A stretch of DNA of 64,000 nucleotides from Alphaproteobacteria bacterium (GCA_965248835.1 CBDFLJ010000002.1:320001-384000); one strand, 5' to 3'; shown: positions 2,310 to 18,134, counted from the stretch's first letter. The notes: generated by a model not told the origin, from the letters alone. Program-made: numbers and translations.

Positions 2310-2314
2310 ACTGG

Positions 2315-2640: not shown

Positions 2641-2641
2641 A

Positions 2642-3276: not shown

Positions 3277-3310
3277 TGGGGCAGGGGGAGCACAGGGGGG
3301 TAGGAAAAGC

Positions 3311-3338
3311 TTGCCGAGGGGGTCAATACCCATAGACT
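3311..3338 (+). promoter_or_regulatory. Putative sigma70 promoter of the ABC operon
   Basis: TTGCCG-N16-TAGACT, about 30 nt upstream of the SBP start codon. Confidence 0.35.
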
Positions 3339-3366
3339 GTCGGACCACAGGAGAAGAGGTGGGACC

Positions 3367-4833
3367 ATGAAACCATCATTGACCAGGGTATCGACGGTCG
3401 CTCTTGCGGCCGCGCTTTGCTTGAGCATCGGCGCTGCGGCTCCCGCGCTCGCCCAGGACGGCGTCGCGCAGCGCGCGATCGACGGTGCCAAGGCGTATGT
3501 CAAGCAGCACAATCTCAAGAACCCGAAGCTCGACATTCTGCTGAATTCGCTCTACCGCAACTCGTTCCCCGATTTCGCGGCCGAGTGGAAGCAGCTGACG
3601 GGTGTCGAGGTGGACTCGGAGCCGCTCGGCTACACCGACATCCCGAGCAAGGTCATGGGTGAGGCGGTCGCCAAGACCGGCGCGTTCGACATGTTCAACG
3701 ACTTTCCCTACACCCAGCCCGACGCGGCGAGCGCCGGCGTCCTGAAGCCGCTCGATGAGTATGCGGCCAAGTACAAGCCGGATTTCTCGGGCATCCCCGA
3801 AGCGTTCATCGCCCAGCAATACTATAACGGCAAGCAGTACAGCTTCGTCCTCGACGGCGACCACATCATCCTGGTGCTGCGCAAGGACATCGTCCAGAAC
3901 CCCATGGCGCGTGCCGAGTTCAAGGCGGCGACCGGCAAGGATCTCGGCTGTCCCGCGACGATGGCCGAGTGGGAGGAGCAGGCCAAGTTCTTCCACACCA
4001 AGGCGGGCCAGACCCGCTGGGGCGTCAAGTTCGACAAGCCGCTCTACGGCGCCATGGGCTACCGGTCGATCAAGTTTTCGCATCGGCATTTCCCGGCCTA
4101 TTTCGGCGGACTCCTGTTCGACCAGAAGATGAACCCGCGGATCAACACCAAGCAGGGCGTCAACGCGATCACCGCTTTCGCCTCGATCGTCCAGTACATG
4201 CCCGAGGACATCCAGGGCTGGGGGACGCCGCAGATCTACCCCTTCTGGGGCAGCGGGCAGGCCTATTCGGTGATGTCGTTCCCGTCGATCTTCGGTTTCG
4301 GCAACGCCAACCCCAAGAGCACGGTCAAGGGCATCCAGAAGCCCTGCGTGATTCCGGCAACGGATGCGGGCGGCAAGCTGGTGCGCCGCGCCGCCGAGGC
4401 GGCGGGGACGAGCTACATGGTCAACACCTATAGCGACCATCCCGAGCTCGCCTATCTGTTCATCCAGTGGCTGACCAGCCCGTCGGTCGGCAACCGGGCG
4501 ATCGCCCACCCCAGGGGCTTCTGGGACCCGTTCCGCAAGCACAACCTGGGCGATGCCGGCATCATCAAGAAGTTCTCCAACGAGTTCCTCGAGACCACGA
4601 TGGAGAACGCCCAGTACACGACCTCGCTGCTCTATATCGAGGGCCATTACGAGTACATGAAGATCCTCGACAACAACCTCGCCGACGTGATGAACAAGAA
4701 CATCTCGCCTGCCGAGGCGGCGAAGAAGATCGAGCGGCGCTGGAACGCCGTGACCGAGGATATCGGCCGCGACGAGCAGATCGAGGCCTGGCTCAAGGGC
4801 GTCGCGACCGGTCTCTATGTCGACCGGTTCTAG
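3367..4833 (+). CDS. ABC transporter extracellular solute-binding protein (CUT1/carbohydrate type)
   Basis: Signal peptide (ALA-QD), WKQLTGVEV, LKPLDEY, PATMAEWEEQAKFF and HPELAYLFIQWLTS; first gene of the operon. Confidence 0.9.
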   Translation: MKPSLTRVSTVALAAALCLSIGAAAPALAQDGVAQRAIDGAKAYVKQHNLKNPKLDILLNSLYRNSFPDFAAEWKQLTGVEVDSEPLGYTDIPSKVMGEAVAKTGAFDMFNDFPYTQPDAASAGVLKPLDEYAAKYKPDFSGIPEAFIAQQYYNGKQYSFVLDGDHIILVLRKDIVQNPMARAEFKAATGKDLGCPATMAEWEEQAKFFHTKAGQTRWGVKFDKPLYGAMGYRSIKFSHRHFPAYFGGLLFDQKMNPRINTKQGVNAITAFASIVQYMPEDIQGWGTPQIYPFWGSGQAYSVMSFPSIFGFGNANPKSTVKGIQKPCVIPATDAGGKLVRRAAEAAGTSYMVNTYSDHPELAYLFIQWLTSPSVGNRAIAHPRGFWDPFRKHNLGDAGIIKKFSNEFLETTMENAQYTTSLLYIEGHYEYMKILDNNLADVMNKNISPAEAAKKIERRWNAVTEDIGRDEQIEAWLKGVATGLYVDRF

Positions 4834-4846
4834 CCCGGTCAACGCC

Positions 4847-4903
4847 CGTCTGGGCGCCGGCGTGCCTCCCCGCCCCCGGGGCGGCGCGCCGGCGCCCATG
4901 ACG
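4847..4903 (+). other. Long GC-rich intercistronic stem-loop after the SBP gene
   Basis: TGGGCGCCGGCGTGCC (4851-4866) pairs with GGCGCGCCGGCGCCCA (4883-4898), with inner stem CCCCG/CGGGG and outer CGTC/GACG. No U-tract. Confidence 0.75.
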
Positions 4904-4908
4904 CGACC

Positions 4909-5871
4909 TTGAACGCCGCGCTCTCCCCCCGCAGCAACCGACCGTTCGGCAGGCTCGGCGCCTGGCTCGCCCAGGAGCGGGTGTTCCGCTGGATCCCGTT
5001 CGCGCTGGTCGAGGCCACCTTCGTCCTCGTCATCATCATCCCGTTCGTCCTGACCATCTACATCAGCTTCCTGCGCTGGCGCGCCAACCGGCCGTTCGAG
5101 CAGGCCTATCTGTCGGGATTCCGCAATTACGAGCAGGTGCTGACCGACATCGGCTTCTGGGCATCGCTCGGACGCACCTTCTATTTCGCCGGCGCGGCGG
5201 TGGTCTTCGAACTGGTGATCGGCTTCATCCTGGCGATGCTGGTCCACCGCGTCATCCGCGGCCAGCGCTTCTACATCACCCTCTTCCTGGTCCCGATGAT
5301 GATCGTGCCGGTGGTCGCCGGGTACAACTTCTCGATGATCTATCTCGACAGCGGTCCGCTCAACCAGGTGCTCTCGCCGCTGATGCACGTGCTCGGCGTC
5401 GATCCGCGCATCCGCTGGCTCTCGGACCCGACCGCGGCCCAGCTCGCGATCATCTTCGCCGACATCTGGCAATGGACCTCGCTGACCTTCCTGATCTTCC
5501 TCTCGGGCTTCGCCGCGCTCCCGCCCCAGCTCATCAACGCGGCCAGGGTGATGGGGGCGAACCGGCGGCAGATCTTCTTCTGGGTCGAATTGCCGCTGCT
5601 CAGGCCGGTGATCGTGATCGCGGTGGTGATCCGCTCGATGGAGGCGCTCAAGCTGTTCGACCCGGTGGTGCTGCTCACCTTCGGCGGGCCCGGAACCTCG
5701 ACCCAGACCATCGCCTTCTATCTCTGGGAGCAGGTCTGGGAGTTCAACAAGTACAGCTTCGGCGCCGCCGCCTCGGTCCTGCTGCTGATTCTGTTCTCGG
5801 CCCTGATCTTCACCGGCATCTGGCTGATGGTGCGCCAGCGCGCCCAGATCGAGCGCGAGCGGGCAACATGA
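4909..5871 (+). CDS. Carbohydrate ABC transporter permease 1
   Basis: GFRNY, DIWQWT and EAA-like loop NAARVMGA; TTG start uncertain. Confidence 0.9.
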   Translation: MNAALSPRSNRPFGRLGAWLAQERVFRWIPFALVEATFVLVIIIPFVLTIYISFLRWRANRPFEQAYLSGFRNYEQVLTDIGFWASLGRTFYFAGAAVVFELVIGFILAMLVHRVIRGQRFYITLFLVPMMIVPVVAGYNFSMIYLDSGPLNQVLSPLMHVLGVDPRIRWLSDPTAAQLAIIFADIWQWTSLTFLIFLSGFAALPPQLINAARVMGANRRQIFFWVELPLLRPVIVIAVVIRSMEALKLFDPVVLLTFGGPGTSTQTIAFYLWEQVWEFNKYSFGAAASVLLLILFSALIFTGIWLMVRQRAQIERERAT

Positions 5872-6785
5872 ACGGCCGCCGCCGCGACCGCAGGCCGATC
5901 TACCGCCACGCGGTCCTGATCGCCTGGACGATGATCATCATGTTCCCGATCTACTGGATGTTGCAGACCTCGTTCAAGGACGCCGGCGAATGGGTGACCT
6001 GGCCGCCGCATTGGATCCCGCACGACCCGACGCTCAGGAACTACGAGCAGATCTTCACCTTCGACGTCCAGCAGGCCGGGGTCGCCCGCGACGCCAGCGA
6101 ACAGCCGTTCAGCATCTGGGGCTCGCTGTTCGATTCGATGCTGATCTGCACCATCTCCTCGCTGATCGCGCTGTTCATGGGCACCTTCCTGGCCTATGCG
6201 ATCTCGCGCTTCAACGTCGGCGGCGGCAAGTTCCGCCACATGGTGCTGATGGTCCGCATGATCCCGCCGATCGTGATCGCGATCCCGCTTCTGATGTATT
6301 ACGCGGTGCTGATCCCGTTCTCGACCGAGGCGGTGTTCGGGGTCCGTATCAGCCTGTTCGATACCAGGACAGGCATGAGCATGCTCTACGTGACGATCAC
6401 GCTCCCCTTCGTCATCTGGATGATGCTGAGCTTCATCGACGAGGTGCCCTATACGCTCGAGCACGCCGCACGGATCATGGGGGCGGGGCGGATCTATACG
6501 CTGCGCAAGGTGGTCCTGCCGCTGGTCGCCTCGGGCATGGTGGTGACCTTCCTGTTCGTCTTCATCCTGAACTGGGCGGAGTTCCTGCTCGCACTCACGC
6601 TCACTCACCCGGACGTCTCGACGCTGCCGGTGCTGCTCAACAAGTTCCAGAGCGCCTCCGAAGGACGGCTCTACGGCCCTCAGGCGGCGATCGGCACGGT
6701 GATCACGATCCCGGTGGTGGTGCTCGGCATTCTCATCCAGAAGCATTTGGTCAAGGGCTTCAGCTTCGGCATGATGCGGCGGTGA
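5868..6785 (+). CDS. Carbohydrate ABC transporter permease 2
   Basis: ATGA overlap with the previous stop; FPIYWMLQTSFK, EHAARIMGA, WAEFLLAL and IQKHLVKG motifs. Confidence 0.9.
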   Translation: MNGRRRDRRPIYRHAVLIAWTMIIMFPIYWMLQTSFKDAGEWVTWPPHWIPHDPTLRNYEQIFTFDVQQAGVARDASEQPFSIWGSLFDSMLICTISSLIALFMGTFLAYAISRFNVGGGKFRHMVLMVRMIPPIVIAIPLLMYYAVLIPFSTEAVFGVRISLFDTRTGMSMLYVTITLPFVIWMMLSFIDEVPYTLEHAARIMGAGRIYTLRKVVLPLVASGMVVTFLFVFILNWAEFLLALTLTHPDVSTLPVLLNKFQSASEGRLYGPQAAIGTVITIPVVVLGILIQKHLVKGFSFGMMRR

Positions 6786-6799
6786 CGGGGAACCAAATC

Positions 6800-7870
6800 G
6801 TGGCAAACATCGTCCTGAAGGAGCTCGTCAAGCGGTTCGGTGACATCACCGCCGTCAACGGCGTCAACCTGGACATCGAGGACGGGGAGTTCCTGATCCT
6901 GGTCGGGCCGTCGGGCTGCGGGAAGACGACGACGCTCAACATGATCTCCGGCCTGGTCGCCCCCACCAGCGGCGAGATCATGATCGGCGAGCGCAACGTC
7001 ACCCATGTCGAGCCGGGCGAGCGCGGGCTCGGGATGATGTTCCAGGACCTGGCTCTGTTCCCGCATATGACGGTGTTCGAGAACATCGCCTTCGGTCTCA
7101 GGGTCAAGCAGATGCCCGACCGCGAGATCGCCGACCAGGTGCGCAAGGTGGCCGAGTCGTTGCATATCGCGGCGCTGCTCGACAAGCGGCCGGGCGAGTG
7201 CTCGGGCGGCGAGGCGCAGCGGGTGGCGCTGGCTCGGACCATCGTCACCAACCCCTCGGTCTATCTGATGGACGAGCCGCTCTCGAGCCTCGACGCCAAG
7301 CTCAGGGTCGACATGCGGACCGAGCTCAAGGGGCTGCACGAGCGGCTCGGCAACACCTTCGTCTATGTGACCCACGACCAGGCCGAGGCGATGACCATGG
7401 CCGACCGAATCGTGGTGATGAATCTGGGCGAGATCGAGCAGGTCGGCGGCCCGCTCGACATCTACCGCAGGCCGGTCACCCGTTTCGTCGCCGGGTTCTT
7501 CGGCATGCCGACGATGAACTTCCTGGAAGGCGGGATCGAGGCCCGGGACGGGGGGCCGCGTTTCGTGAGCGGGAATCTGAGCGTCGCCCTGTCCGCCGAC
7601 CTGCCCGCCGGGCTCGCCGGAAGGCGGAGCGTCCTCGGCGTCCGCTCCGAGCACGTGACGACCGGCGCGGGCGGCATGTCGGGGACCGTCAGGATCGTCG
7701 AGCCGCTCGGCGACGCGACGCTGGTCTTCTTCGAGTTCGGCGGCGCCGGCCGGCTGGTCGCCAAGACCGACCCCGACCTGACGTTTCGCCCCAACGACCC
7801 GGTGACCTTCGACTTCGATGCCGCGCACTGCCACCTGTTCGATCCCGCCGACGGCGCAAGGCTGAATTAG
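6800..7870 (+). CDS. ABC transporter ATP-binding protein (MalK/UgpC type)
   Basis: Walker A GPSGCGKT, signature variant CSGGE, Walker B YLMDE, VTHDQAEAM and C-terminal TOBE domain. Start is GTG 6800 or 6782. Confidence 0.92.
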   Translation: MANIVLKELVKRFGDITAVNGVNLDIEDGEFLILVGPSGCGKTTTLNMISGLVAPTSGEIMIGERNVTHVEPGERGLGMMFQDLALFPHMTVFENIAFGLRVKQMPDREIADQVRKVAESLHIAALLDKRPGECSGGEAQRVALARTIVTNPSVYLMDEPLSSLDAKLRVDMRTELKGLHERLGNTFVYVTHDQAEAMTMADRIVVMNLGEIEQVGGPLDIYRRPVTRFVAGFFGMPTMNFLEGGIEARDGGPRFVSGNLSVALSADLPAGLAGRRSVLGVRSEHVTTGAGGMSGTVRIVEPLGDATLVFFEFGGAGRLVAKTDPDLTFRPNDPVTFDFDAAHCHLFDPADGARLN

Positions 7871-8376
7871 GGGAGACGGGCCGCGTTGGCACCATGACCC
7901 ACGACGATGAGCGCAACGCAACGACCACGCTATTCGCCGCCCTGAACGTCTTCGACGGCACGGTCATCGGCCGCAATATGCAGCGTCATCGCCACCAGGA
8001 ACTCATCCGCTTCCTCAACACGATCGAGGTCGAGGCGCCGGTCGGTAAAGCCGCTCAAGTCATTCTCGACAATTACGCCGCCCACAAACACCCGAAGGTC
8101 CGGCGCTGGCTCGATCGTCATCCACGCTGGACCTTTCACTTCACGCCGACATCCTGCTCTTGGCTCAACGCCCTGGAAGATTTCTTCGCAAAACACGCCA
8201 AACGCCGCCTCGAACGCGGCGTCTTCCGCTCCGTGGTCGACCTTCAGGCCGCCATCAACCGGTTCGTCGCTGAGCACAACCAAAGCGAGGCCAAGCCATT
8301 CCGTTGGACCGTAGACCTCGACGAAATCATCGCCGGCGTCAAACGCGGGCACCAAACGTTAGATTCCATCCACTAG
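7871..8376 (+). pseudogene. IS630-family transposase, C-terminal remnant with right end
   Basis: TMTHDDERNATTTLFAALN, ILDNYAAHKHP, FHFTPTSCSWLNALE; ends GATTCCATCCACTAG. 5' part absent. Confidence 0.9.
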
Positions 8377-8386
8377 GTGGCGTCGG

Positions 8387-11373
8387 GTGACTTCTGGCCT
8401 CTCAGTCCCCGCAGCTACTGGATCAAGCCCTTCGGCAAGTGGCCCTGCGGGGGCTCTCTTCGAGGGCCAAGTCGCCGCACACTACCTGCTCACAATGCTC
8501 GCTGAAGCCGATCCGCGCGGACTGCCGGGCGTGTCTATCGAACGGATCGAGCTGCAGCGCGCAGGTGAAGGGCATCCCCTCGATGACGTCGTCGTCCACG
8601 GCATCACGCGGACAGGCGAGCCAGCAACGCTGGAGGTGCAGGTCAAGCGCACGATCACCTTCTCCCCCGGCGACACGGTGTTCAAGGACGTTGTAGGGCA
8701 ACTCGCACAAGCTTTCCGAACGCTCGATCTCGCCCATCACCGCCATCAGTTCGCCGTCTCGACCGAGCGCACCTCCTTCAAGATCACCGGTCCTTATCAG
8801 GATGTGCTGCGCTGGGCGCGCGAGGTTAGCTCGGCAGCGGTCTTCATCGGGCGGATCAACCGGGAAAAGGTCGGCAATGACAATATGCGCGCCTTTGTGC
8901 AAACAGTGCGTTCTCATCTTCTGGACGCCGGCTGCGCGAACGACGACGAGACCATTTGGCAGGTCCTGCGCCGCTTTCAGATCCTGATCTTCGACTATGA
9001 CGCACCCGGCTCCCAATCGCTCGAACTGGCACTTGAGCGGGCACGGAATCTGCTCGAACCGAGCGATGCGACGCGGGCCAGCGCCTTCTGGAAGGTCCTA
9101 ACCGAGACCGCGATCCGGGCTGCCGCTTCGGGCGGCGACCTCGACCGCGCACAGCTTCTCTCCGAAATCACAAGAATCAACGGCTTCCGGCTGCTCGGCT
9201 CGCCCCGCAATCGGATGCCGCGCGAAACCCTCGACGAAGCCGCCGGCCTCACCGCCGCCGACCTGCGCGGGAGCATCGCCGGGGTGACCTTGGCGCGCTC
9301 AAGCCAGCTCGACGCCGTGCGCGAGGCGCGCGATGAGGGCCGCTATGTCGAAATTCGCGGCGACCCAGGTGTCGGCAAGTCTGGCCTCCTAGGGATGCTC
9401 GTCGACCAGACACTCAACGAAGCACACACGATCGTTTTCACCCCGGAGCGGACGCTTCCCGGAGGCTGGTTGGCTTTCAAATCCGCGCTGCAGATTGAGA
9501 GCGGACCCGAGGCATTTCTCGCAGACCTCGCGAGCGATGGTGGCGCCGTACTCTTCGTCGACAGCCTCGACTTCTTCGACGACGTCGACAAGCGCGCCAC
9601 GGTCGTAGACCTGATTCGAGTGGCCGCCTCGATACCCACGTTCCAAGTGATCGTCACTGCGCGGAGCGACTTTGGCGAGGACGAACCGAATTGGCTGCCT
9701 TCGGAGACCGTCACAAAGCTCGGCCGCGCTCGACCTGTTTTGCTCGAAGAGCTGGGACCCGAGGAGATAGAGGAGCTCAGAGCCGCTGCGCCTTCCTTGA
9801 GCGCCCTGCTCGCCGACGACCATCCCGCCCGTGCGGTCGCCCGCAACCTCTTCCGGCTGGCGCGCCTGCTAGAAGTAAAGGGTTCAACCGATCAACTCCG
9901 GTCGGAAGTGGATCTAATTGAGCGTTGGTGGACGACGGCCGATGGCCCGGACACGGATCGACGCGGACGGGCGCGCCTGCTTGTCGATCTGACAGACGCT
10001 ATTCTTGCGGGCCGCGATCGCTTGGAGGTCCGCGCTACGTCGTCTGCCGTGGATGCCCTGATCACGAGCGGTACTCTCCGCGAGCTCGACCTCGACCGAC
10101 TCGCGTTTCGACATGATGTCCTCCGCGATTGGGGCGTGGCGGCACGCCTGCACGGCGACTTGGATAAGGTCAACCAGCTTCCGCTCAACCGTGCGGCGCC
10201 CGTCTCGCTAGCGCGGGGCGTCGAACTCGGCGCGCGGTTTGCGCTGGAGCGGTCCGAGGATGGCCAGGCTTGGATCGAGTACGTCGACCGGGTTAGTCAC
10301 GACGGGGCCCATGCATCCTGGCGCCGCTGGTCTCTTCTCGCGATCGTTCGCTCGGAACTCGCCTTCACGCTATTGGATCGAGCGTCTGCGGCACTGATGG
10401 AGAATGACGGCGCGCTATTGCGAGAACTGATCCGCACAGCGATTGCGGTCGAGTCTCGACCGCTCGCTGAAACGCTCGCCGAAGTTGGCGTCGAAGCGGG
10501 ATCAATCCCCGCCGGCATCTACGGCCCAACGAATCGCTCTTGGGAGCGTCTAGCGCGCTGGTTGCTCGCGAGGCAAGCCTGTCTGCCGCTGCAAGGGCTT
10601 CCCGACGTTGTCGAGCTATTCCAGAGCCTCTCTGCGTCCATGTTCTTCGCCGATCCAATAATTACGCCGAGAATGGCCATAGCGCTCGCCGACTGGCTCG
10701 ATGAGGTCGAGGACGCTCTGGATCATCGTTTGTCCTCGGCCGATCCGCCGAGGTTCGCGAGCGCGTTCCGGAATCATGATTTGCAGAAGCTGGCTGGCGA
10801 TGTACGGCAGGCGTTTCTCCTTATGGCCGCCCGCGTGCCCGAGCGGGCGCAAAGCTATTTGTGCCGGCTACTCAGGCGGCGAAATCCCGATCACACAATC
10901 CGCGACATCATGAAATTCCGCGGAACACTGGCGCAGGCGGCGCCTGCAGAGCTCGTTGAACTCACGCTGGCAGGGCTGATCCCAAAGGATGACCAGAAGC
11001 ACCGGAGCACGATCCGAAACGAAGCGTTCACACATCTCGACAGTGACTTCCTACCAAGTTCGCCCTCGCAGGGCCCATTTCTCGACTTGCTCAACGTGGC
11101 ACCAGAACATGGCCTCAGCCTCATCCGGCGCCTGGTCGATCACGCGATCGCCGCCCGCAGCGGCGGACGTGAACCGGGCGATGACGGGATCACGCTCCTC
11201 CTTCCGACCGGTCCGCGTGTCTTTCCGTGGTCACACTCCTATCTCTGGTCGCGACAGGCCGGCGGCTGCTACGCGGTTGCATCTGGCCTCTTGGCGCTCG
11301 AAGCATGGGCACATGCCCGGATCGAACGAGGAAATGTTCCAGAGCAGGTCGTAGCCGATCTTCTTGGGCCTGA
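8387..11373 (+). pseudogene. 5' part of an IS-interrupted nuclease-STAND NTPase (Avs-like candidate defence protein)
   Basis: GPAGALFE...LDDVVV...LEVQVKR (PD-(D/E)xK-like), Walker A GDPGVGKS, Walker B VLFVDSLD, sensor VIVTARS, ARNLFRL and FRHDVLRDW. Confidence 0.75.
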
Positions 11374-12315
11374 GAGCCCTTCCGGAAAGTTCTTGAATCG
11401 GAAGAATCGTTTGTGATTCTGTGCTGGGCATCCGGTTTACAGGAGGAAGCCCGATGTGGACTGCGGAACACCGCCGCGCGGCGGAGCGTCGCGGACTTCG
11501 CTATCCGAGTGATCTGACCGACGCCGAGTGGGCGCTGATCGCGCCAATGATCCCGCCTGCCAAGCGCGGCGGGCGCAAGCGCTCAGTCGACGTGCGCGAG
11601 GTTCTGAACGGCATCTTCTACGTGCTGTCCACGGGCTGCCAGTGGAATGCACTGCCCAAGGATCTGCCGCCGAAGTCGACGGTGTACGACTATTTCGATC
11701 TATGGGAGTGGGATGGCACGCTGGAGCGGATCCATCATGAACTCTACGTCGCGGTGCGCGATGAGGAAGGACGCGAAGCCAGCCCGTCGGCCGCGGTCAT
11801 CGACAGCCAGAGCGCCAAGGCGGCGCAAAAAGGGGGGCGTCGATCGACGATCAAGGCTTCGATGCGGGCAAGAAGGTCACCGGTCGCAAGCGGCACATCA
11901 TGGTCGACACGCTCGGCCTGATGCTGGGCATCGTGGTGCATTCCGGCGACGTTCAGGATCGCGACGGTGCCCACGAGCTCTTGCGCCGCACCCGGCGACG
12001 GTTCCCATTCATCGAGGTGATCTACGCCGACGGCGGCTATCAGGGACCGAAGATGGCCGCGACTGTCGCCAAGACCGGGGGGTGGCGGCTCGAGATCGTC
12101 AAGCGCAACGACGTGCCCCGCTTCGAGGTGCTGCCAAAGCGTTGGATTGTCGAACGCACCTTCGCCTGGATCAGCCGCAACAGGCGCCTCGCTCGCGACT
12201 TCGAACGTCACGTTCGATCCGTCGTCGCCTTCATCCGACTCGCCATGATCCGCATCATGCTGCGCAGACTCGCCGCAACACACTCACCATAGATTCAAAC
12301 TTTCCGGATCGGCTC
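11374..12315 (+). mobile_element. IS5-family (IS1031-like) element, 942 bp, TGA target duplication
   Basis: IRs GAGCCCTTCCGGAAAGTT / AACTTTCCGGATCGGCTC; TGA at 11371-11373 and again at 12316-12318. Confidence 0.92.
11454..12292 (+). CDS. IS5-family transposase in two frames joined by a -1 shift
   Basis: RYPSDLTDAEW, TGCQWNALPKDLPP, IDSQS, then GRKRHIMVDTLG, YADGGY and RWIVERTFAW. AAAAAGGGGGG at 11827-11837 lies at the frame junction. Confidence 0.88.
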
Positions 12316-12318
12316 TGA

Positions 12319-14449
12319 GGGTTCGCCAGCTGCATTCCTCCTCGTTGCAGTCGACGTTCTCCTCTCGCATTGGCCAAAGACCATGACGGCCGCCATCCCT
12401 TTCCTCGGTTCGCCCGAGCTGCTGTCGCTTGATCGAGGCCGCCACATCCATGATGGAATGTCGAGGTTGGACCCGAGCGGATGGTTTGGCCCCGGCCCAA
12501 ACGAACCGACAGGAGTAATTCGACTCGAAGATCTTAGAATGCGGCCGTCGCGCAGCTACCCGTTGGAAACGTTACTTGGACCCTTTGCTCTCAACGAGGC
12601 GGCCGACCACGAAAGACTGCATGCCCTGCTCGCCGCGGCTGCAGCGCGATTGGGGCCTCCTGAATCGGACGATACATTCGCAGAGCCGCGGCTTATGGCA
12701 CGCTACGCCCTTAACCTGACTGACCCTGCAAACTGGTCGTCCGTCGACGGCGGCCGTGCGTACATATCCCCGCCTGAGGAAGCCCGGCACATCGAGGCGC
12801 TCCAAGAAAAGCACGCGGCGCATACCCAGGATGTCCAAATCGACGCAGCGATACAGGGCGTGTTGGAAGACAGCACGCGATCAAGCCACGAGTTCGCGGA
12901 ACAGGCAGTCGCTTATACGCAGCGTCTGTCGACAGTCACGGATTCGCCCGAAGACGTCCTGCGCTCTCGAACCAACGCAATCGTCTCAGCCGCAATGGTA
13001 CTTAGTCGCGACGGCTCCGATAGGTTGCTCGACCAGCACGAAGAATGGGCGCGGAACGTGTTCGCGCCGACATTCGCAACCACCAACCACATCGCCGGTT
13101 CCGGGGGGCCTGACGGCATTCGTTTCAATCCTGTCGCGATCGCCACGCTCGGGCTCATTCACCTTTGGCAGCGACGCGGCCGCGAGGGTGACTGCATCGC
13201 GCTGCTAGAGCTCGCTGGACGAGAAGACTCCTTGGCTGCTCACGGCTTCGGCGGCGGCATCACTGTCCTTCGCGAGATCGACCCGCGGCTTGCGTCTGCC
13301 TTGCTGCGGTGTGCGCTTACCGCCCAAGTCCAGCCGAGTTGGGTTCGCCAGGACACCGAAGAAATCAAGGCAACCAAGCAGGCACAGCACAAGGAGCGGG
13401 TCGCGGGCGCAATTCAAGCCGAGCTGGCCTGGCTGAACAACGTTGGGCCGGAACCGACGTGGCCGATCTTCCCGCCTCCGATGATCTCTGTCCAGCGCGG
13501 CCTGAGGATCGGCGGCAACGATCACGCGGCGCGACGGGCCCCAGCCGTAATGCCAAGCGATCAACTCCATTCTCAGAGGGCCGCCACATGGATTAAACAG
13601 CTAACGCGCGATTCCGGTCCCGACGATTTAGACTGTATCGTGAGCTTTGTTGACGCTTACGCTGATTGGACCGCAGCGGCGAACGGCGCCGGACACCAGC
13701 CGGAGGCCAAGATCGAAGGCCGAATGGGCGAGTGGAACAGCGTTTTCTTTTCGCTTCTAGCCCGCGCCTTCGCGGCCATGACACCCGATCAGGTCGCCAC
13801 CCATGTTGCGCGCTCGGTTGCCGTTCCTGACGAGTCCTTCTTCGATGTCGCAAACGAGCTCGTGCGCATGATCGATCAAGTTCACTTCAATGGGTCCGGT
13901 TTGGACATCGACATGGCGGTCAGGTTGCGCAGCTTGCTGGCAGATCGTTTGGTTCAAACAGCTGGCTGGCGGCGCGAGTGCGATAGCTCGGAGCTCTCGG
14001 TTGAGATGCATATAGGCTCAGCGATTGCTGCGCTATTTTTTAACAATTACAGTCTATTCACAGGATCTTCTTGTGACCTGCTCGCCAAAGGGATCGATCA
14101 AGTTGAGCCCTTCCTGCCTGAACTGAGCAGATTGATCACTGATGGGCCGGTTCCGTTTACCGGGCTCTTGACAATGAGTCTCCTTGAAGTGTCGCCTAGG
14201 TCGGCCCACTTGAGTTTTTTCCTATCGAGTTCAATCACTTGGATCAAACGACAACCGACCAACACGCAGCTGTGGATCGACGTCGGGCTGGGCACTCGCG
14301 TTGCAAAGTGGCTGGAAACAGTCTTTGGGATCGACGCGACGCTCCGTGACCCATCTCATCCGCTGAGATCTCAAATGGAAGACGTTCTCGCTCGTCTAGT
14401 CCAGGCCGGCGTGGCCGACGCTCACAGGGTGGAGGGGCTACTAGTCTAA
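12319..14449 (+). pseudogene. 3' part of the IS-interrupted nuclease-STAND protein
   Basis: In frame with 8387-11373 once the IS and one TGA copy are removed (LLGPE-GSPAAFLLVAVDVLLSHWPKT-MTAAIP). No recognisable catalytic motif. Confidence 0.75.
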
Positions 14450-14467
14450 GGATTGTCTCGCGGTCGG

Positions 14468-14619
14468 TTCCGCTCCGTGGCGACCTTCAGGCCGCCATCA
14501 ACCGATTCGTCGCCGAGTACAACCAAAGCGAGGCCAAGCCATTCCGTTGGACCGCAGACCCCGACAAAATCATCCACGCCGTCAAACGCGGGTACCAGAC
14601 GTTGGATTCGATCCACTAG
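14468..14619 (+). repeat. Second IS630 right-end remnant, direct repeat of 8224-8376
   Basis: Manual alignment gives about 13 mismatches plus 1 gap over 153 nt; both copies end CCACTAG. Confidence 0.9.
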
Positions 14620-15626
14620 CTTGCCAGCAGGTCTTTCAAGGCGGTGTCGATAAAGACCGCGTCGGTCGGGCTTCTCCCCGAGCCGGCCCAATGGCCCCAG
14701 ATCGTGGGGATCGGGCGGAACTCGGCATTGGGCATGTGGGCGGCTTCATACTCGCCGTCTTCGGGCGGGAAATACGTATCCGTCCTGCTCGGCATGACGA
14801 TCGCCCGCGCGCAGATCGAGGCGAGCGCGTCCTCGAAGCGGGAACCGTAGAGCGCATTGGCACTGATGTCGGCGTGCTGCCAGGTCCAGATTTGCGACAG
14901 GATGTTGTTGGCATCGAGCGACAGGCACCAGCGCTCCCAATAGCCGGACAGAAACGCTTCGAGCGTGGCGAACCCGAGGTCCTTGTACTTCTCCTCGCGG
15001 TAGAAGCCCTGCGAGGGCGGCCAGGGCGCCCACGCTCGGCCCAGCGCGCGCAGGCCGGCCGTCGGCGGCTCCTCGTAGTCGCCGCTGCGCCATGCCGGAT
15101 CTGCGGTCAGCACGGCCCGCATGCCTTCGAGAAAGGCAGTGTTGTGGATCGATGTCCGCGCCGACCCGCAGATCGGCGCGATGCGTTCGACCATGTCCGG
15201 AAACAGCGCCGCCCAGTGATAGGTCTGGATCGCACCCATCGAATGGCCGAAGGCGAGCGCGACGCTTTCGATGCCGAACAGCTCGGCGACCAGCTTCCGC
15301 TGCATTTGGACATTGTCGTAGATGGTGACGTCAGGGAAGCGCGCCTTGTCCGATGGCGGCGGTGTGTTGCTCGGCGAGGACGACAAACCATTGCCGGTCG
15401 TATTCATGATGATGATGAAATACTTGCCCGGGTCGATCGCCTTGTCCTGGCCGATGAAGTGTTCGCAGTCTTTGTCGCGCGCGCTGAACGGCGTGAAGCA
15501 CAGCACGACGTTGCTCTTGGCCGCGTTGAGCGTGCCATGCGTGGCATAGGCGATCTTCGCGCCCGGCAACGTTCGGCCCGACTGCAGCACGACCGCGCCG
15601 GCTTCGAATATCTGGTGGTCGGTCAT
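14616..15626 (-). CDS. Alpha/beta hydrolase, homoserine O-acetyltransferase-like
   Basis: GGAGG RBS before ATG 15626; GTLNAAKSNVVL, GNGLSSSPSN, nucleophile GHSMG, DTYFP and WGH. Confidence 0.8.
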   Translation of the reverse strand: MTDHQIFEAGAVVLQSGRTLPGAKIAYATHGTLNAAKSNVVLCFTPFSARDKDCEHFIGQDKAIDPGKYFIIIMNTTGNGLSSSPSNTPPPSDKARFPDVTIYDNVQMQRKLVAELFGIESVALAFGHSMGAIQTYHWAALFPDMVERIAPICGSARTSIHNTAFLEGMRAVLTADPAWRSGDYEEPPTAGLRALGRAWAPWPPSQGFYREEKYKDLGFATLEAFLSGYWERWCLSLDANNILSQIWTWQHADISANALYGSRFEDALASICARAIVMPSRTDTYFPPEDGEYEAAHMPNAEFRPIPTIWGHWAGSGRSPTDAVFIDTALKDLLAS

Positions 15627-16238
15627 CCTACGATCCTCCAAGCGGACCTCGGCCCGATCGCCGAAGACCTCGTTGACCTGTGCGCGGCATTGTTCGGCGC
15701 GTCGGTACAGCGCCTCCGCCCTGTCCGGCGGACAGCTCAACCCGTCCTCGATCATCTCGCGCAGCTTCGGGCTCATCCGCTCCTTGTGGTTTCGATAGTC
15801 CTCACCCAGCGTGCGGGTCAGCCCGACCTTGAGGATCTCCGTATGGATCTCCAACAGATCGTCATATTGCGCCGGCAATCCGACCTCGTCGACCGCCGCC
15901 CCCAGTTCGGCCAGCCGCGCTGCCGCACCCTCCACCGCATCGATGCTGGATTGCTCCGCATGGAACCACATGGGAGTCCGGCACAACCCGATCCGCGGAC
16001 TGCGGTCGAGCCCGTCAGCCAGCGGCCGCGGCGTCTGGTCGTGGACGACCGCGAAGAAGCTCGCCAGGTCGTCGAAGCTGCGCCCCATATAGCCGAGCGT
16101 GTCGAAGCTCGGCTCCAGCGGCAAAATTACCGTGAGGTCGGTGATGCCGCGCGTCGGTTTGAAGGCACAGATCCCGCGGAACGAGGCCGGACGGATCAGC
16201 GAGCCTGCGGTCTGGTTGCCGAAGGCGATGGGCACCAT
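15627..16238 (-). pseudogene. Internal fragment of an amidase-signature enzyme, in frame with the downstream hydrolase
   Basis: MVPIAFGNQTAGSLIRPASFRGICAFKPT...SFDTLG. The catalytic Lys, the GGSS motif and the C-terminus are missing. Confidence 0.7.
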
Positions 16239-16401
16239 ATGGTCTCGGTGGTCGGCTGCAAGGTTTTTTTGTTCCAACCCGATCCTTCCTCTGCAGCCGT
16301 GGAAAACCCTATTCTTGCCGCACGCGTTCCATGCAACCGCGAGATGCCGCGGCGTTCGAGTCGTCCGTCGAAGACCCTTCTCGCAACCGGGGATGAAAGC
16401 C

Positions 16402-17445
16402 ATGACCCACGCAGAAATCGGCCCGAAACTGGCCCGCGCCGCGGATGTCCTTGCGCGGGACATGATGTGCATATCCAAAGGCGAGAGCGTCCTGATTACG
16501 ACCGACACCGGGACCGACATCGTCGGGGTCCAGGCGGTCCAGGATGCCGCCTACCGGCTGGGCGCGAAGGTCGCCTCGATCGTGCTGGCGCCGCCGCTCC
16601 CGTTTCAGGGCGGCCTGGCGGACGCGTTTCTCCCTGACCACGTCAAGGCGGCGACCGGCGAATGCGATGCCTGGATCGACCTGTGCATGCCGTATCTGGC
16701 CGGCTCGAAGGCCTTCGATCGCGCGATGGAGAAGGGCCGCGCGCGATATTTCCTCGGCGCCGATATCGGGGCCGAGGAAATCGTCCGTCTGATGGGCGGG
16801 GCCGAACTCGACGCAATGTTTGCGCTGGGCGATGCGTTCGGTGCGCTGATGGCGGAGTCTGCCGGCAAGGAATGCCGCATTACCAACGCGGCCGGCACCG
16901 ATGTCGGTTTCACGCTGGCCAAGCCCGAAGGCTTCGCGCTGGCCAAGGCGACCAAGCCCGGCGGCTATTTCGTGCCGGGCACGATCGTGTTCATGCCCGA
17001 ATTGGAGTCGGTCCGCGGCTCGGTGGTCACCAGCAACATGTTCCATGAGTATTACACCGAGCTCGGCGAGCCGATGACGCTCAGGATCGACGGCAAGGTC
17101 CAGGAGGTCATCGGCGGCGGTCCGGAGAACAAGGTCATGCAGCGCGCGCTGGCCCGCGCGGGGAACGGGGATTTCGGCTACGTGGTCCATTTCACCTGCG
17201 GTTTTCATCCCGCTGCGCGCTATACCGGCAAGTGTTTCATCGAGGACCAGCGCGTCGCCGGCTACAACGCTATCGGTCTCGGCTTGCCGTTCTGGGTGCC
17301 CGGCGGAGGCGAGAACCATCCCGACTGCGTGATCTCGATGCAGTCGATGTGGGTCGACGGGCAACAGGTTCTCCAAGACGGCGTGATCATCGCACCCGAG
17401 CACCTCGTGGCGATGTCCAAGGAGCTGCTTCCGATCTACGCATAG
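16402..17445 (+). CDS. M29/NicX-fold metalloprotein (NicX-like paralog)
   Basis: KGESVLITTDT, ITNAAGTDV, VVHFTCGFHP and ENHPDCVI; same layout as nicX at 30979. Confidence 0.65.
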   Translation: MTHAEIGPKLARAADVLARDMMCISKGESVLITTDTGTDIVGVQAVQDAAYRLGAKVASIVLAPPLPFQGGLADAFLPDHVKAATGECDAWIDLCMPYLAGSKAFDRAMEKGRARYFLGADIGAEEIVRLMGGAELDAMFALGDAFGALMAESAGKECRITNAAGTDVGFTLAKPEGFALAKATKPGGYFVPGTIVFMPELESVRGSVVTSNMFHEYYTELGEPMTLRIDGKVQEVIGGGPENKVMQRALARAGNGDFGYVVHFTCGFHPAARYTGKCFIEDQRVAGYNAIGLGLPFWVPGGGENHPDCVISMQSMWVDGQQVLQDGVIIAPEHLVAMSKELLPIYA

Positions 17446-17524
17446 GCGCGCTCAGCGGTCCAACAGCCGGGCTGCGTTGTCATGCAGCACCTTTCGTAAA
17501 GCGTCCGGTTGGAAGGGGAAGGCC

Positions 17525-17644
17525 TTGAACCTGTCGGAGGTCTGTCTTTCGAGCCTGCCGTTTCTCGGCTGTTCGGTGCTCCTTGTCGTCCTGATCATCT
17601 TGTTTCCCGATATCGCGCTTTACCTGCCCCGAATGGCGCAGTAA
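17525..17644 (+). pseudogene. C-terminal remnant of a TRAP large permease (DctM)
   Basis: LNLSEVCLSSLPFLGCSVLLVVLIILFPDIALYLPRMAQ* aligns with the C-terminus of the DctM at 32810 (FSQVVYAGLPYIGCAFVLLALLIAVPDVVLFLPSLMGS). Confidence 0.65.
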
Positions 17645-17684
17645 CGCCGCGCCCGGTCGCGCCGCGTGACTTCGGAGCGTCCGA

Positions 17685-18134
17685 TCAGACCGCTTGTCCG
17701 TCGTTTTCTTCCCCGGCCCGCGCGGTCGCCGCGTCGGGGAACACGCACTTTATGGCGTGCATGGCAATCTGTTCGTCTTCAAACGACTTGACCCCGGAAA
17801 TGCCCACCGCGCCGACCAGATGGCCGTCGATTATGATCGGCAAGCCGCCCTGCGCGGCCAGGAACGGGAATGTCGCATAGGCCCTGTGAGTGGTTTCGAT
17901 CCAATGTTCCCAGACGCCGCTCGGGCGGCACGTCATCGCGGAGGTGTTGACCTTGGCCAGCGCGATCTCGTCGTTGCCCGGACGCGCGCCGTCCATGCGG
18001 TGGACGGCGATGATGCGTCCGCCGTCGTTGACGATGGCGACCACGACTTCCCAGTTGTTTCGCCGAGCCTTGTCCTCGGCCGCGGCCATGAGCTGCTTGG
18101 CATCGTCCAGAGTGAGCGCAGGCTTGGTGATCAT
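17685..18134 (-). CDS. GlcG/HbpS-family heme-binding protein
   Basis: VAIVNDGG, RMDGA, IALAK and GGLPIIIDGHLVGAVGISG. Confidence 0.88.
   Translation of the reverse strand: MITKPALTLDDAKQLMAAAEDKARRNNWEVVVAIVNDGGRIIAVHRMDGARPGNDEIALAKVNTSAMTCRPSGVWEHWIETTHRAYATFPFLAAQGGLPIIIDGHLVGAVGISGVKSFEDEQIAMHAIKCVFPDAATARAGEENDGQAV

What the first reader, a model, noticed from the sequence alone, without database searches (positions are those of the whole stretch)
8387..14449. Hidden 1705-aa nuclease-STAND NTPase gene (candidate Avs-like anti-phage sensor) reconstructed across an IS5 insertion
Seen: the 1009-aa and 688-aa ORFs are one gene. Deleting 11374-12318 (IS plus one TGA copy) joins 2987+2131 nt into a single open frame (LLGPE|GSPAAFLL...WPKTMTAAIP) with no other lesion. 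Its architecture is an N-terminal DDVVV...EVQVK PD-(D/E)xK-like motif, a GDPGVGKS/VLFVD STAND ATPase and roughly 1100 aa of C-terminal sequence with no motif I recognise. Established: effector-STAND-sensor is the layout of Avs/NLR-like defence proteins. Inference: this is a single-gene defence system whose sensor region may define an uncharacterised subtype and phage trigger.
Basis: partly seen in the sequence, partly recalled or inferred. Interest (0 to 1): 0.85.

Follow-up and report, generated by a model that had tools for sequence, protein, structure and literature searches.

The report
IS-split Avs4-like anti-phage sensor gene
Two neighbouring reading frames are the halves of one 1705-residue gene for a nuclease-armed bacterial immune sensor related to the known phage-portal sensor Avs4, cut in two by a recently inserted mobile element, so it is a real but fairly ordinary find.

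Summary
ORFs 8387-11416 and 12383-14449 are one gene. A 942-bp IS5-family element (11374-12315) with a 3-bp TGA target duplication splits it. Removing the element gives a 995+1+709 = 1705-aa frame that lines up residue for residue with intact 1700-1735-aa homologues.

The protein is not an unknown architecture. A profile of the family hits the solved EcAvs4 structure (8DGF) at E 8e-32. AlphaFold models of both halves match Avs4 end to end: residues 272-995 to Avs4 176-895, and the C-terminal 709 aa to Avs4 896-1587.

Only the N-terminal effector differs. It has a Cap4-type PD-(D/E)xK nuclease fold, as in SeAvs3, Cap4 and LmuA, whereas EcAvs4 carries an Mrr-type nuclease.

No neighbouring gene is conserved, so it is a single-gene system. 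It occurs in 3 of 400 sampled genomes of the class and often sits next to integrases and defence genes.

The curated Avs4 models do not detect the window's copy. PADLOC's Avs4 model does hit 20 of 28 relatives.

Verdict: an IS-inactivated, divergent Avs4-like defence gene. Its trigger is probably a phage portal, which is untested. Novelty and interest are modest.

The parts
8387..11373 (+). 5' part of the split gene (codons 1-995 plus the first two bases of codon 996); GTG start
   Evidence: aligns to residues 12-994 of the intact 1713-aa homologue P0004 at 79% identity
8417..9226 (+). N-terminal effector domain (residues ~11-280) with a Cap4/DUF4297-type PD-(D/E)xK nuclease fold; putative active site E26, D66-D67 (8582-8587) and E83-x-Q85-x-K87 (8633-8647)
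   Evidence: Model pLDDT 86.8. VIA-align: 9c1m_G HerA-DUF Z 13.9, rmsd 3.2, 181 aligned; 9hr5_A LmuA Z 13.7; 6wan_F AbCap4 Z 13.4; 8zue_A Hachiman structure Z 11.9; 8dgc_A SeAvs3 residues 2-502 Z 12.4. Invariant D66, D67, Q85, K87. No Pfam PF14130 sequence match.
9203..10576 (+). STAND (NACHT-like) NTPase module, residues ~273-730: Walker A GDPGVGKS (9359-9382), Walker B LFVDSLD (9551-9571), winged-helix H576-D577 (10112-10117)
   Evidence: VIA-align NLRC4 4kxf Z 17.6, NLRP3 Z 17.5, NOD2 Z 16.5. The profile alignment to Avs4 pairs the Walker A, Walker B and HD motifs. Invariant G330, K331, S332, D392, H576.
10577..11373 (+). First part of the helical sensor region (residues ~731-995), upstream of the IS
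   Evidence: Model residues 272-995 align to Avs4 8dgf_B 176-895, Z 16.3, 652 aligned
11371..11373 (.). Left copy of the 3-bp target-site duplication (TGA)
11374..12315 (+). 942-bp IS5-family insertion sequence (GAGCCC...GGCTC); terminal inverted repeats ~11374-11391 and 12298-12315
   Evidence: Inverted repeat I1. 12 full-length copies at 99-100% identity in the genome. TNA duplications at 10 of 12 copies.
11421..11921 (+). IS transposase, N-terminal frame (DUF4096; NCBIfam transpos_IS5_3, profile positions 1-114 of 258)
11900..12292 (+). IS transposase, C-terminal DDE domain in the -1 frame relative to the N-terminal frame (DDE_Tnp_1 E 3e-19); a programmed frameshift is inferred
   Evidence: frames
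12316..12318 (.). Right copy of the 3-bp target-site duplication (TGA)
12319..14449 (+). 3' part of the split gene: last base of codon 996, 709 codons of Avs4-like sensor, then the stop codon
   Evidence: 65% identity to residues 997-1702 of P0004; model pLDDT 89.8; residues 1-709 align to Avs4 8dgf_B 896-1587, Z 16.8, 621 aligned, next hit Z 11.3
7873..8376 (+). Context: remnant of an IS630-type transposase (DDE_3, profile positions 29-145 of 146) that ends 10 bp before the gene's start codon

Best explanation
The locus is a single-gene anti-phage STAND immune receptor of the Avs4 lineage that has been knocked out by a recent IS5-family insertion.

The intact 1705-aa protein has three parts:
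- an N-terminal Cap4-type PD-(D/E)xK nuclease;
- a NACHT-like STAND NTPase;
- a ~975-aa all-helical sensor homologous to the portal-binding sensor of EcAvs4.

By analogy with the solved Avs3, Avs4 and Avs7 systems, the proposed mechanism is as follows. The monomer is autoinhibited. The sensor binds a conserved phage structural protein, most likely the portal. ATP binding then drives the NTPase to form a tetramer. This brings the nuclease domains together into an active DNase, which destroys DNA and aborts the infection.

In this genome the IS cuts the sensor at the position equivalent to Avs4 residue 895/896. No full-length receptor can therefore be made, and the system is presumed inactive.

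What is shown: the split, the IS, the homology and the folds, the conserved catalytic and Walker residues, and the lack of a conserved partner gene. What is inferred: defence function, oligomerisation, DNA cleavage, portal as the trigger, and loss of function.
For: Split and precise rejoining.

The insertion is probably recent. The IS copy is 99-100% identical to 11 other copies. The window's copy also keeps every residue that is invariant across the 51-sequence alignment.

Avs4 homology:
- the family profile (51 sequences) hits PDB 8dgf_A, EcAvs4, at E 8e-32 in two colinear stretches (280-765 to 190-669; 850-1300 to 746-1219); the next hit has E 0.0015;
- Foldseek ranks Avs4 first for both halves (E 1.2e-20 and 3.4e-7);
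- VIA-align maps residues 272-995 to Avs4 176-895 (Z 16.3) and the C-terminal 709 aa to Avs4 896-1587 (Z 16.8, against 11.3 for the next, generic solenoid hit);
- PADLOC's Avs4 HMM hits 20 of 28 diverse family members, best E 1.3e-38.

Nuclease: Cap4-type fold at Z 11.9-13.9 over about 180-200 residues. D66, D67 and Q85 are invariant and K87 at least 90% conserved in 51 sequences. They sit at the start of one modelled beta-strand and on the next one.

Stand-alone and mobile: the largest neighbour family occurs in 4 of 61 non-redundant loci. The gene was found in 3 of 400 other genomes of the class and in 21 plasmid records. Phage_integrase is the commonest Pfam family among 141 neighbours, at 8 of 141. 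ResIII, SWI2_SNF2, AAA_21, Abi_2, Fic and Schlafen-type neighbours also occur. In the S. meliloti pSymA record the homologue lies near a type I R-M plus Abi cluster and a caspase/pYEATS pair.

Mechanism in the literature, from passages I read: EcAvs4-Mrr binds the portal (8DGF) and SeAvs3-Cap4 binds the terminase (8DGC); the Cap4 and Mrr nuclease domains mediate tetramerisation (10.64898/2026.08.25.746987). ATP-driven tetramerisation enables Cap4-mediated DNA cleavage in SeAvs7 (10.64898/2026.01.04.697583).
Against: - Sequence identity to EcAvs4 is only about 11-13%, so the same trigger is not assured.
- The curated Avs4 models do not recognise the window's copy. NCBIfam NF041815 gives 15.5 bits against a cut-off of 1500. 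PADLOC's Avs4 model gives nothing at E <= 0.1 for either half. Neither model finds anything in the whole genome at E <= 0.01.
- No sequence-level match to Pfam Cap4_nuclease. It is not among the 25 families listed of 42 for 28 members, and it has no hit in the genome at E <= 10. The nuclease assignment therefore rests on fold and motif position.
- In this window the gene does not sit in a recognisable defence island. Its neighbours are a sugar ABC transporter, an IS630 remnant and an amidase/hydrolase-like gene.
- The neighbourhood tally has no matched control, so enrichment is not demonstrated.
- There is no experimental evidence of phage defence for any member of this clade. All names given by sources are 'hypothetical protein' or 'ATP-binding protein'.
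Confidence: 0.75

Rival explanations
1. The architecture and the defence role are the same, but the sensor has diverged to recognise a phage protein other than the portal. The clade would then be functionally a distinct Avs family.
For: Sensor identity to EcAvs4 is about 11-13%. In the same 50 homologues, the C-terminal 709 aa are consistently less conserved than the N-terminal 995 aa: 65, 56, 53, 51 and 48% against 79, 72, 68, 64 and 57% for the five closest. That fits a fast-evolving recognition surface. Lee et al. 2026 report that related-looking helical sensors detect many different phage proteins, and that Avs11 senses the portal without any similarity to Avs4.
Against: The sensor is colinear with Avs4's sensor over its whole length. 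Avs4 is its only specific structural match, at Z 16.8 against 11.3 for the next hit. The passages of Lee et al. I read say that Avs proteins recognise the fold of their targets across little or no sequence similarity. Low identity alone therefore does not imply a new trigger.
Confidence: 0.3
2. It is the large subunit of a multi-gene system, as the PADLOC candidate name PDC-M54A suggests, and needs a partner gene that is missing here.
For: The best PADLOC hit of the window's N-terminal half is PDC-M54A: E 5.3e-17, residues 17-598 against profile positions 15-618 of 1621. 15 of 28 relatives also hit it. My reading of 'M' as 'multi-gene' is from recall.
Against: No conserved neighbour: 213 neighbours within three genes in 61 non-redundant loci, with the largest family present in 4 loci. 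In six annotated plasmid records the flanking genes all differ. The PDC-M54A match covers only the nuclease and NTPase, not the sensor.
Confidence: 0.07
3. It is a non-immune STAND protein, such as a regulator or a factor in conflict between mobile elements, and not an anti-phage sensor.
For: Lee et al. note that defence and non-defence STAND clades are interspersed. In this window and in the R. leguminosarum record the gene lies beside sugar-transport genes. No match in 50,697 phage records.
Against: It combines a nuclease effector with invariant catalytic-type residues and full-length homology to an experimentally validated defence protein. Its distribution is patchy (3 of 400 genomes). Integrase, R-M, Abi and toxin-antitoxin genes are among its neighbours.
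Confidence: 0.08
4. The split is not a knockout. The 1009-aa N-terminal product (nuclease, NTPase and a quarter of the sensor, plus 14 IS-encoded residues), or the two halves together, keep some activity.
For: ORF 8387..11416 stays open and ends inside the IS. ORF 12383..14449 has its own ATG. Neither half shows any further lesion.
Against: The cut removes the part equivalent to Avs4 896-1587, which is most of the sensor. Expression was not measured. No sigma-70-like promoter was found in 7800-14800; this is weak evidence. Seven of 61 homologue loci carry frameshifts or deletions in the gene, which fits ordinary decay.
Confidence: 0.05

Closest known systems
EcAvs4 (AVAST type 4; PDB 8DGF, bound to the phage PhiV-1 portal)
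   Same: A single polypeptide with an N-terminal nuclease, a STAND NTPase and a long helical sensor. The NTPase and the sensor are homologous end to end: profile E 8e-32, and VIA-align maps residues 272-995 and the C-terminal 709 aa onto Avs4 176-1587. Walker A, Walker B and the winged-helix HD motif pair up in the alignment.
   Different: About 11-13% identity. The effector has a Cap4-type fold, whereas EcAvs4's is Mrr-type (EcAvs4-Mrr named), and the N-domain is about 280 aa against about 175 aa. It fails the NCBIfam Avs4 equivalog cut-off (15.5 against 1500 bits). Its trigger has not been tested.
SeAvs3 (PDB 8DGC) and SeAvs7: Avs proteins with a Cap4 nuclease effector
   Same: An N-terminal Cap4-type nuclease fused to a STAND NTPase. 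Model residues 11-510 align to SeAvs3 2-502, Z 12.4. The likely activation route is tetramerisation of the Cap4 domains.
   Different: The sensor is Avs4-like, not Avs3-like: Foldseek E 1e-20 for Avs4 against 1e-11 for Avs3. Avs3 senses the terminase and Avs7 the major capsid protein.
Cap4 / DUF4297-type defence nucleases (AbCap4 6WAN, LmuA 9HR5, HerA-DUF4297 9C1M) and the Hachiman structure 8ZUE
   Same: The fold of residues ~11-280, Z 11.9-13.9. An acidic pair sits at the start of one modelled strand and a Q-x-K on the next.
   Different: No sequence-level match to Pfam PF14130. The domain is fused to a STAND NTPase, not to SAVED, SMC-like or HerA partners.
PADLOC candidate PDC-M54A
   Same: The best PADLOC hit of the window's N-terminal half (E 5.3e-17), covering the nuclease and the NTPase. 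15 of 28 relatives hit it.
   Different: The match stops at about residue 600 of a 1621-position profile. No partner gene is conserved. No paper holding 'PDC-M54' was found in the library.
IS5-family insertion sequences with 3-bp TNA target duplications (the subgroup names IS1031/IS427 are from recall)
   Same: NCBIfam transpos_IS5_3 above its cut-off, DUF4096 plus DDE_Tnp_1, a two-frame transposase, terminal inverted repeats, and TNA duplications at 10 of 12 copies.
   Different: No megablast match in 72,556 plasmid records. The element was not compared with ISfinder.

Membership tests
Avs4 (AVAST type 4) | STAND NTPase core with Walker A and B and a winged-helix His, homologous to that of EcAvs4 | tested here: met
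   Profile stretch 280-765 aligns to EcAvs4 190-669 with GVGKS/GVGKT, LFIDxLD/IVVDSAE and FxHD/ITHD paired. Invariant K331, D392, H576.
Avs4 (AVAST type 4) | C-terminal sensor homologous to the portal-binding sensor of EcAvs4 | tested here: met
   Profile stretch 850-1300 aligns to Avs4 746-1219. P0002 residues 1-709 align to 8dgf_B 896-1587, Z 16.8, 621 aligned, next hit Z 11.3. Foldseek E 3.4e-7, TMq 0.48.
Avs4 (AVAST type 4) | Score above the curated NCBIfam equivalog cut-off (NF041815, 1500 bits) | tested here: not met
   15.5 bits, E 0.0018, for P0001 and no hit for P0002. No hit in the genome at E <= 0.01. The halves were scored separately, but even added together they are far below the cut-off.
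Avs4 (AVAST type 4) | Recognition by PADLOC's Avs4 HMM (PDLC02169) | tested here: inconclusive
   The window's halves give no hit at E <= 0.1, and the genome none at E <= 0.01. Yet 20 of 28 family members hit the model at E <= 0.001, best 1.3e-38. The R. leguminosarum and Neorhizobium homologues hit only weakly, at 7.8e-4 and 2e-4.
Avs4 (AVAST type 4) | Activation by a phage portal protein, followed by tetramerisation | not testable with these tools
   No experiment was possible. Complex prediction was not attempted because the sensor plus a portal exceeds its 1000-residue limit and no cognate phage is known.
Avs4 (AVAST type 4) | Stand-alone, single-gene system | tested here: met
   The largest neighbour family is present in 4 of 61 non-redundant loci. 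The flanks differ in six annotated plasmid records.
STAND / NLR-like NTPases | NBD-HD1-WHD(-HD2) fold | tested here: met
   NLRC4 Z 17.6, rmsd 4.4, 395 aligned over residues 273-729; NLRP3 and NOD2 Z 16-17.5. Sub-threshold Pfam hits to AAA_16 (24 of 28), nSTAND3 (15 of 28) and NACHT (13 of 28).
Cap4 / DUF4297 PD-(D/E)xK nuclease | Cap4-type nuclease fold | tested here: met
   Z 13.9 (9c1m_G, rmsd 3.2, 181 aligned), 13.7 (9hr5_A) and 13.4 (6wan_F), covering model residues ~11-280. This was a second look at Foldseek's top 1000 chains for a 995-residue model; the domain was not folded on its own.
Cap4 / DUF4297 PD-(D/E)xK nuclease | Match to Pfam PF14130 (Cap4_nuclease) | tested here: not met
   Not among the 25 families listed (of 42) for 28 members at E <= 1. 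No hit in the genome at E <= 10. The only lead is an ESM Atlas cluster with PF14130 on 46% of its members, score 0.90.
Cap4 / DUF4297 PD-(D/E)xK nuclease | Catalytic D...(D/E/Q)xK residues in the canonical positions | tested here: inconclusive
   D66-D67 lie immediately before modelled strand 68-73, and E83-x-Q85-x-K87 lie on strand 79-87. D66, D67 and Q85 are invariant and K87 at least 90% conserved. No residue-level superposition on a solved active site was available.
PADLOC PDC-M54 | Full-length match to the A protein, plus a conserved partner gene | tested here: inconclusive
   The match covers only profile positions 15-618 of 1621. No conserved neighbour was found. The makeup of PDC-M54 could not be looked up (one search found no paper).
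IS5 family (the inserted element) | IS5-type DDE transposase, terminal inverted repeats, short target duplication | tested here: met
   transpos_IS5_3 at 130.9 bits against a cut-off of 110. DDE_Tnp_1 E 3e-19. Inverted repeats 87% complementary over 23 nt. TNA duplication at 10 of 12 copies.

The most novel reading that the evidence does not exclude
The ~1700-aa Cap4-nuclease/Avs4-like clade is functionally a separate Avs family. Curated Avs4 models miss it, its source names are 'hypothetical protein' or 'ATP-binding protein', and it is common on rhizobial megaplasmids and in soil metagenomes. Its fast-evolving sensor would have been retuned to a trigger other than the canonical portal, or to portals of phages of soil Alphaproteobacteria that EcAvs4-type sensors do not see.
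Probability: 0.3. Interest if true: 0.5.

Novelty: new member of a known kind. Interest (0 to 1): 0.3.

Why it matters
It adds a concrete, well-delimited example of an IS knocking out a large immune receptor gene in a genome where that IS is active (12 copies).

It also flags a sizeable clade that current annotation leaves as 'hypothetical protein' or 'ATP-binding protein', and whose window copy the curated Avs4 models miss. The clade has 477 representatives of 50%-identity clusters at E <= 1e-30. Its members turn out to be Avs4-like sensors carrying a Cap4-type nuclease.

For annotation, these genes should be labelled Avs4-like. For biology, the clade offers a natural effector swap on an Avs4 chassis, and a divergent sensor that could test how far portal recognition tolerates sequence drift.

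None of this opens a new mechanism. The systematic STAND census of Lee et al. 2026 (589 clades, 684 sensor clusters) probably already contains the clade.

Tried and rejected
- Sequence searches for the N-terminal domain alone gave nothing. A profile of 7 N-terminal segments against PDB sequences had a best E of 0.13, to an unrelated tape-measure protein. Pfam gave only sub-threshold P-loop hits.
- Pfam Cap4_nuclease, PADLOC Avs4 and NCBIfam Avs4 each found nothing in the window's own genome.
- The family was not found in 50,697 phage records, so a phage-borne origin is not supported.
- The IS had no megablast match in the plasmid collection.
- The search for related loci on genome contigs with the single protein returned only one locus, so I used plasmid records and metagenome contigs for context.
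- Conserved partner gene: looked for and not found.
- 'Intact homologues ending near 11373': the short forms seen (994-1493 aa) were checked in 7 loci. All 7 are frameshifted or partly deleted genes, with C-terminal sequence following in another frame or partly lost; none is a natural short form.
- The neighbourhood tallies covered 141 neighbours within two genes in 51 loci. Before the count I dropped 10 loci where no long ORF could be called, 9 near-duplicate loci, L028 and L056 as duplicate contexts, 3 ORFs that were fragments of the gene itself, and L090-L092 to fit the 50,000-residue limit. No matched control set was run, so I claim no enrichment statistic. The PADLOC tally shows at most 2 members per model.
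- Complex prediction was not used: sensor plus portal exceeds its size limit and no cognate phage is known.
- I did not determine the host organism.
- Gao et al. 2022 (Science) could not be read. What I say about it comes from two later preprints that cite it. I read passages and sections 4 and 10 of 10.64898/2026.01.04.697583, and passages of 10.64898/2026.08.25.746987.
- Supplementary tables are closed. Supplementary Tables 2 and 5 of Lee et al. may already place this clade, which bears on the novelty call.

Full report
**1. The observation.**

The DNA between them is a compact insertion sequence:
- 942 bp, from 11374 to 12315;
- terminal inverted repeats 87% complementary over 23 nt, in arms that run a few bases into the flanks;
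- TGA on both sides;
- a transposase in two overlapping frames. The first frame carries DUF4096 and NCBIfam transpos_IS5_3 (130.9 bits, cut-off 110). The second, in the -1 frame, carries DDE_Tnp_1 (E 3e-19).

The window's genome has 4.89 Mb in 2 contigs, and the window is C2:320001-384000. It holds 12 full-length copies of the element at 99-100% identity. In 10 of the 12, the three bases on either side are the same TNA triplet. Removing the element plus one TGA is therefore the correct excision.

I translated the two parts separately. P0001 (8387-11371) has 995 aa and P0002 (12320-14446) has 709 aa. With the single codon GA|G that spans the break, the frame has 1705 codons and no other lesion.

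**2. It is one gene.**

A word-indexed search with P0001 found 747 proteins at E <= 0.001 among the 8000 candidates scored. Of the 120 listed, 94 are 1634-1735 aa long. The closest is P0004, 1713 aa:
- P0001 aligns to its residues 12-994 at 79% identity;
- P0002 aligns to its residues 997-1702 at 65% identity.

That leaves exactly two residues at the junction, so the insertion is precise and nothing was lost.

In 80 metagenome loci, a long ORF could be called in 70, and 56 of those are at least 1600 aa. Seven shorter forms were checked. All are frameshifted or partly deleted copies, not natural short forms.

An exhaustive HMMER search of 1.84 billion cluster representatives gave 2104 hits at E <= 1e-3 and 477 at E <= 1e-30. 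This is a large family with a fixed length.

**3. What the protein is.**

Single-sequence Pfam and NCBIfam scans give only sub-threshold P-loop and STAND hits. A profile of 51 family members is much more telling. It hits one solved structure far above everything else: EcAvs4, 8dgf_A, at E 8e-32. The next hit has E 0.0015. The match has two colinear stretches, 280-765 to Avs4 190-669 and 850-1300 to Avs4 746-1219. Walker A, Walker B and the winged-helix H-D motif are paired in the alignment.

AlphaFold2 models built on the same alignment are confident: P0001 has pLDDT 86.8 and pTM 0.74; P0002 has pLDDT 89.8 and pTM 0.84.
- Foldseek ranks Avs4 first for both halves, at E 1.2e-20 and 3.4e-7. Avs3 is second for the N-terminal half, followed by animal NLRs.
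- VIA-align gives the ranges. Residues 273-729 match the NACHT module of NLRC4 (Z 17.6).
- Residues 272-995 match Avs4 176-895 (Z 16.3, 652 aligned).
- P0002 residues 1-709 match Avs4 896-1587 (Z 16.8, 621 aligned). The next hit is a generic solenoid at Z 11.3.

The break made by the IS therefore corresponds to Avs4 residue 895/896, inside the sensor.

**4. The effector.**

Residues ~11-280 do not align to Avs4's N-terminus. They match Cap4-type defence nucleases:

| Structure | Z | rmsd | aligned |
|---|---|---|---|
| HerA-DUF4297, 9c1m_G | 13.9 | 3.2 | 181 |
| Lamassu LmuA, 9hr5_A | 13.7 | 4.4 | 204 |
| AbCap4, 6wan_F | 13.4 | 4.6 | 201 |
| Hachiman structure, 8zue_A | 11.9 | 4.3 | 197 |
| SeAvs3, 8dgc_A (model 11-510 to chain 2-502) | 12.4 | 18.1 | 393 |

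E26 (at least 90% conserved), D66-D67 and Q85 (invariant) and K87 (at least 90%) sit on helix 1, at the start of one modelled strand, and on the next strand. These are the places expected for a PD-(D/E)xK site. That assignment comes from my knowledge of the fold, not from a residue-level superposition.

There is no sequence-level Pfam PF14130 match. An ESM Atlas neighbour cluster with PF14130 on 46% of its members is only a lead.

According to passages I read, EcAvs4 carries an Mrr nuclease and senses the portal. SeAvs3 carries a Cap4 nuclease and senses the terminase. In both, the nuclease domains mediate tetramerisation (10.64898/2026.08.25.746987). In SeAvs7, ATP-driven tetramerisation enables Cap4-mediated DNA cleavage (10.64898/2026.01.04.697583).

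**5. Family limits.**

The curated models do not see the window's copy:
- NCBIfam Avs4 gives 15.5 bits against a 1500-bit cut-off.
- PADLOC's Avs4 model gives nothing for either half.
- Neither model finds anything in the genome.

The best PADLOC hit is the candidate PDC-M54A, over the nuclease and NTPase only (E 5.3e-17). Across 28 diverse relatives, however, PADLOC's Avs4 model hits 20 (best E 1.3e-38) and PDC-M54A hits 15. The clade is therefore continuous with what PADLOC calls Avs4. The window's alphaproteobacterial branch is simply beyond the models' reach.

All source names seen are 'hypothetical protein' or 'ATP-binding protein', plus one 'NACHT domain-containing protein' for a distant plasmid hit.

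**6. Context.**

Within the window the gene is preceded by a sugar ABC-transporter operon and by an IS630-type DDE_3 remnant that ends 10 bp before the start codon. A convergent amidase/hydrolase-like ORF follows it. None of these neighbours is a defence gene: an ABC ATPase hit to PADLOC 'mad3' is generic.

The third-codon-position G+C content of the two halves is 0.71 and 0.66. The flanking genes have 0.82-0.88. The 2-18 kb stretch is lower in G+C than the rest of the window. Both fit acquisition by horizontal transfer.

Elsewhere the gene is patchy and mobile:
- It was found in 3 of 400 other genomes of the class and in 21 plasmid records, 13 of them near full length. It was found in none of 50,697 phage records.
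- On S. meliloti pSymA it lies near a caspase/pYEATS pair, an IS21 and a type I R-M plus Abi cluster.
- In Neorhizobium it lies near IS66, toxin-antitoxin genes and an integrase.
- In Polymorphobacter it follows two integrases and an IS110.
- In Phyllobacterium it lies near a DEAD-box helicase and a DUF4041 gene.
- In R. leguminosarum it lies beside sugar-transport genes, and on the Pseudomonas mandelii plasmid among replication genes and hypothetical genes.

In 61 non-redundant metagenome loci, no neighbour family recurs in more than 4 loci. Among 141 neighbours within two genes in 51 loci, the commonest Pfam family is Phage_integrase (8). ResIII (3), SWI2_SNF2, AAA_21, Schlafen AlbA_2, Fic and DUF3800 (2 each) and Abi_2 (1) also occur. 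PADLOC models match at most 2 neighbours each.

This looks like the variable, integrase-rich territory where defence genes live. I ran no matched control, so I claim no enrichment.

**7. Mechanism and status.**

The best reading is a stand-alone Avs4-lineage receptor. Its sensor binds a conserved phage protein, with the portal the first candidate. ATP-dependent oligomerisation follows. The Cap4-type nuclease domains then assemble into an active DNase. Those three steps are inferred from the solved relatives.

The IS removes the last 709 residues of the sensor from the reading frame, so the receptor is presumed dead. The insertion looks recent: the IS copy is 99-100% identical to its siblings, and the window's protein keeps every residue that is invariant across 51 homologues.

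The sensor half diverges faster than the N-terminal half across the same homologues. That leaves room for a shifted trigger.

**8. Novelty.**

Lee et al. 2026 catalogue 589 STAND clades and 684 sensor structural clusters, and describe Avs7-24 (sections 4 and 10 read). A full-text search for 'PDC-M54' found no paper. I found no paper on this clade in the three Avs searches I ran, and no source names it.

I rate it a new member of a known kind, with a swapped effector and a divergent sensor. Interest is modest.

**9. Limits.**

- The N-terminal domain was not folded on its own.
- No residue-level superposition of the active site was possible.
- No complex prediction was run.
- Expression was not examined.
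- Gao et al. 2022 was not readable.

Noticed in passing
G000 C1:129401-131287 (outside the window): Two copies of the same 942-bp IS lie head to tail, separated by only 3 bp (TTA). This is a tandem IS dimer, which could be a transposition intermediate or a nested insertion at the very end of a copy.
   Followed up: no
G000 C2:794504-795445 and C2:852647-853588 (outside the window): These two IS copies are the only 2 of 12 whose flanking triplets differ (TAA/TCA and TAA/TTA). This hints at recombination between IS copies or loss of a flank.
   Followed up: no
window 7873-8376 (+): A C-terminal fragment of an IS630-type transposase (DDE_3, profile positions 29-145 of 146) overlaps the long spurious-looking ORF 7198..8376 and ends 10 bp before the Avs4-like gene's GTG start. 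The gene may have arrived with another mobile element, or lost its native promoter to one.
   Followed up: partly
window 14616-16520 (-): A 634-aa ORF with high third-position G+C (0.83) combines a partial Amidase match (profile positions 141-290 of 445) with an alpha/beta-hydrolase match. It is either an odd fusion or a decayed gene. The longer overlapping + strand ORF 14547..16637 is probably not coding.
   Followed up: partly
window 2000-18000: G+C content is 0.62-0.65 here against 0.66-0.71 over most of the rest of the window. The two halves of the Avs4-like gene have lower third-position G+C (0.71 and 0.66) than the flanking genes (0.82-0.88).
   Followed up: partly
loci L030, L037, L063, L073, L078, L084, L086: Seven of 61 non-redundant metagenome homologues are split by frameshifts or internal deletions. 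This is either recurrent decay of the gene or assembly error. In L078 the frame changes close to the position where the IS sits in the window.
   Followed up: partly
L008 (R. leguminosarum WSM1325 pR132501) 1520-12411: The 64%-identical homologue also lies directly downstream of a sugar ABC-transporter operon, as in the window. I did not test whether the transporters are orthologous or this is coincidence.
   Followed up: no
L070:6680-11350, L084:8116-13371, L032:5518-9909: In three metagenome loci the gene is adjacent to another very large ORF (1463-1751 aa). I did not identify these individually; they could be further large defence proteins.
   Followed up: no
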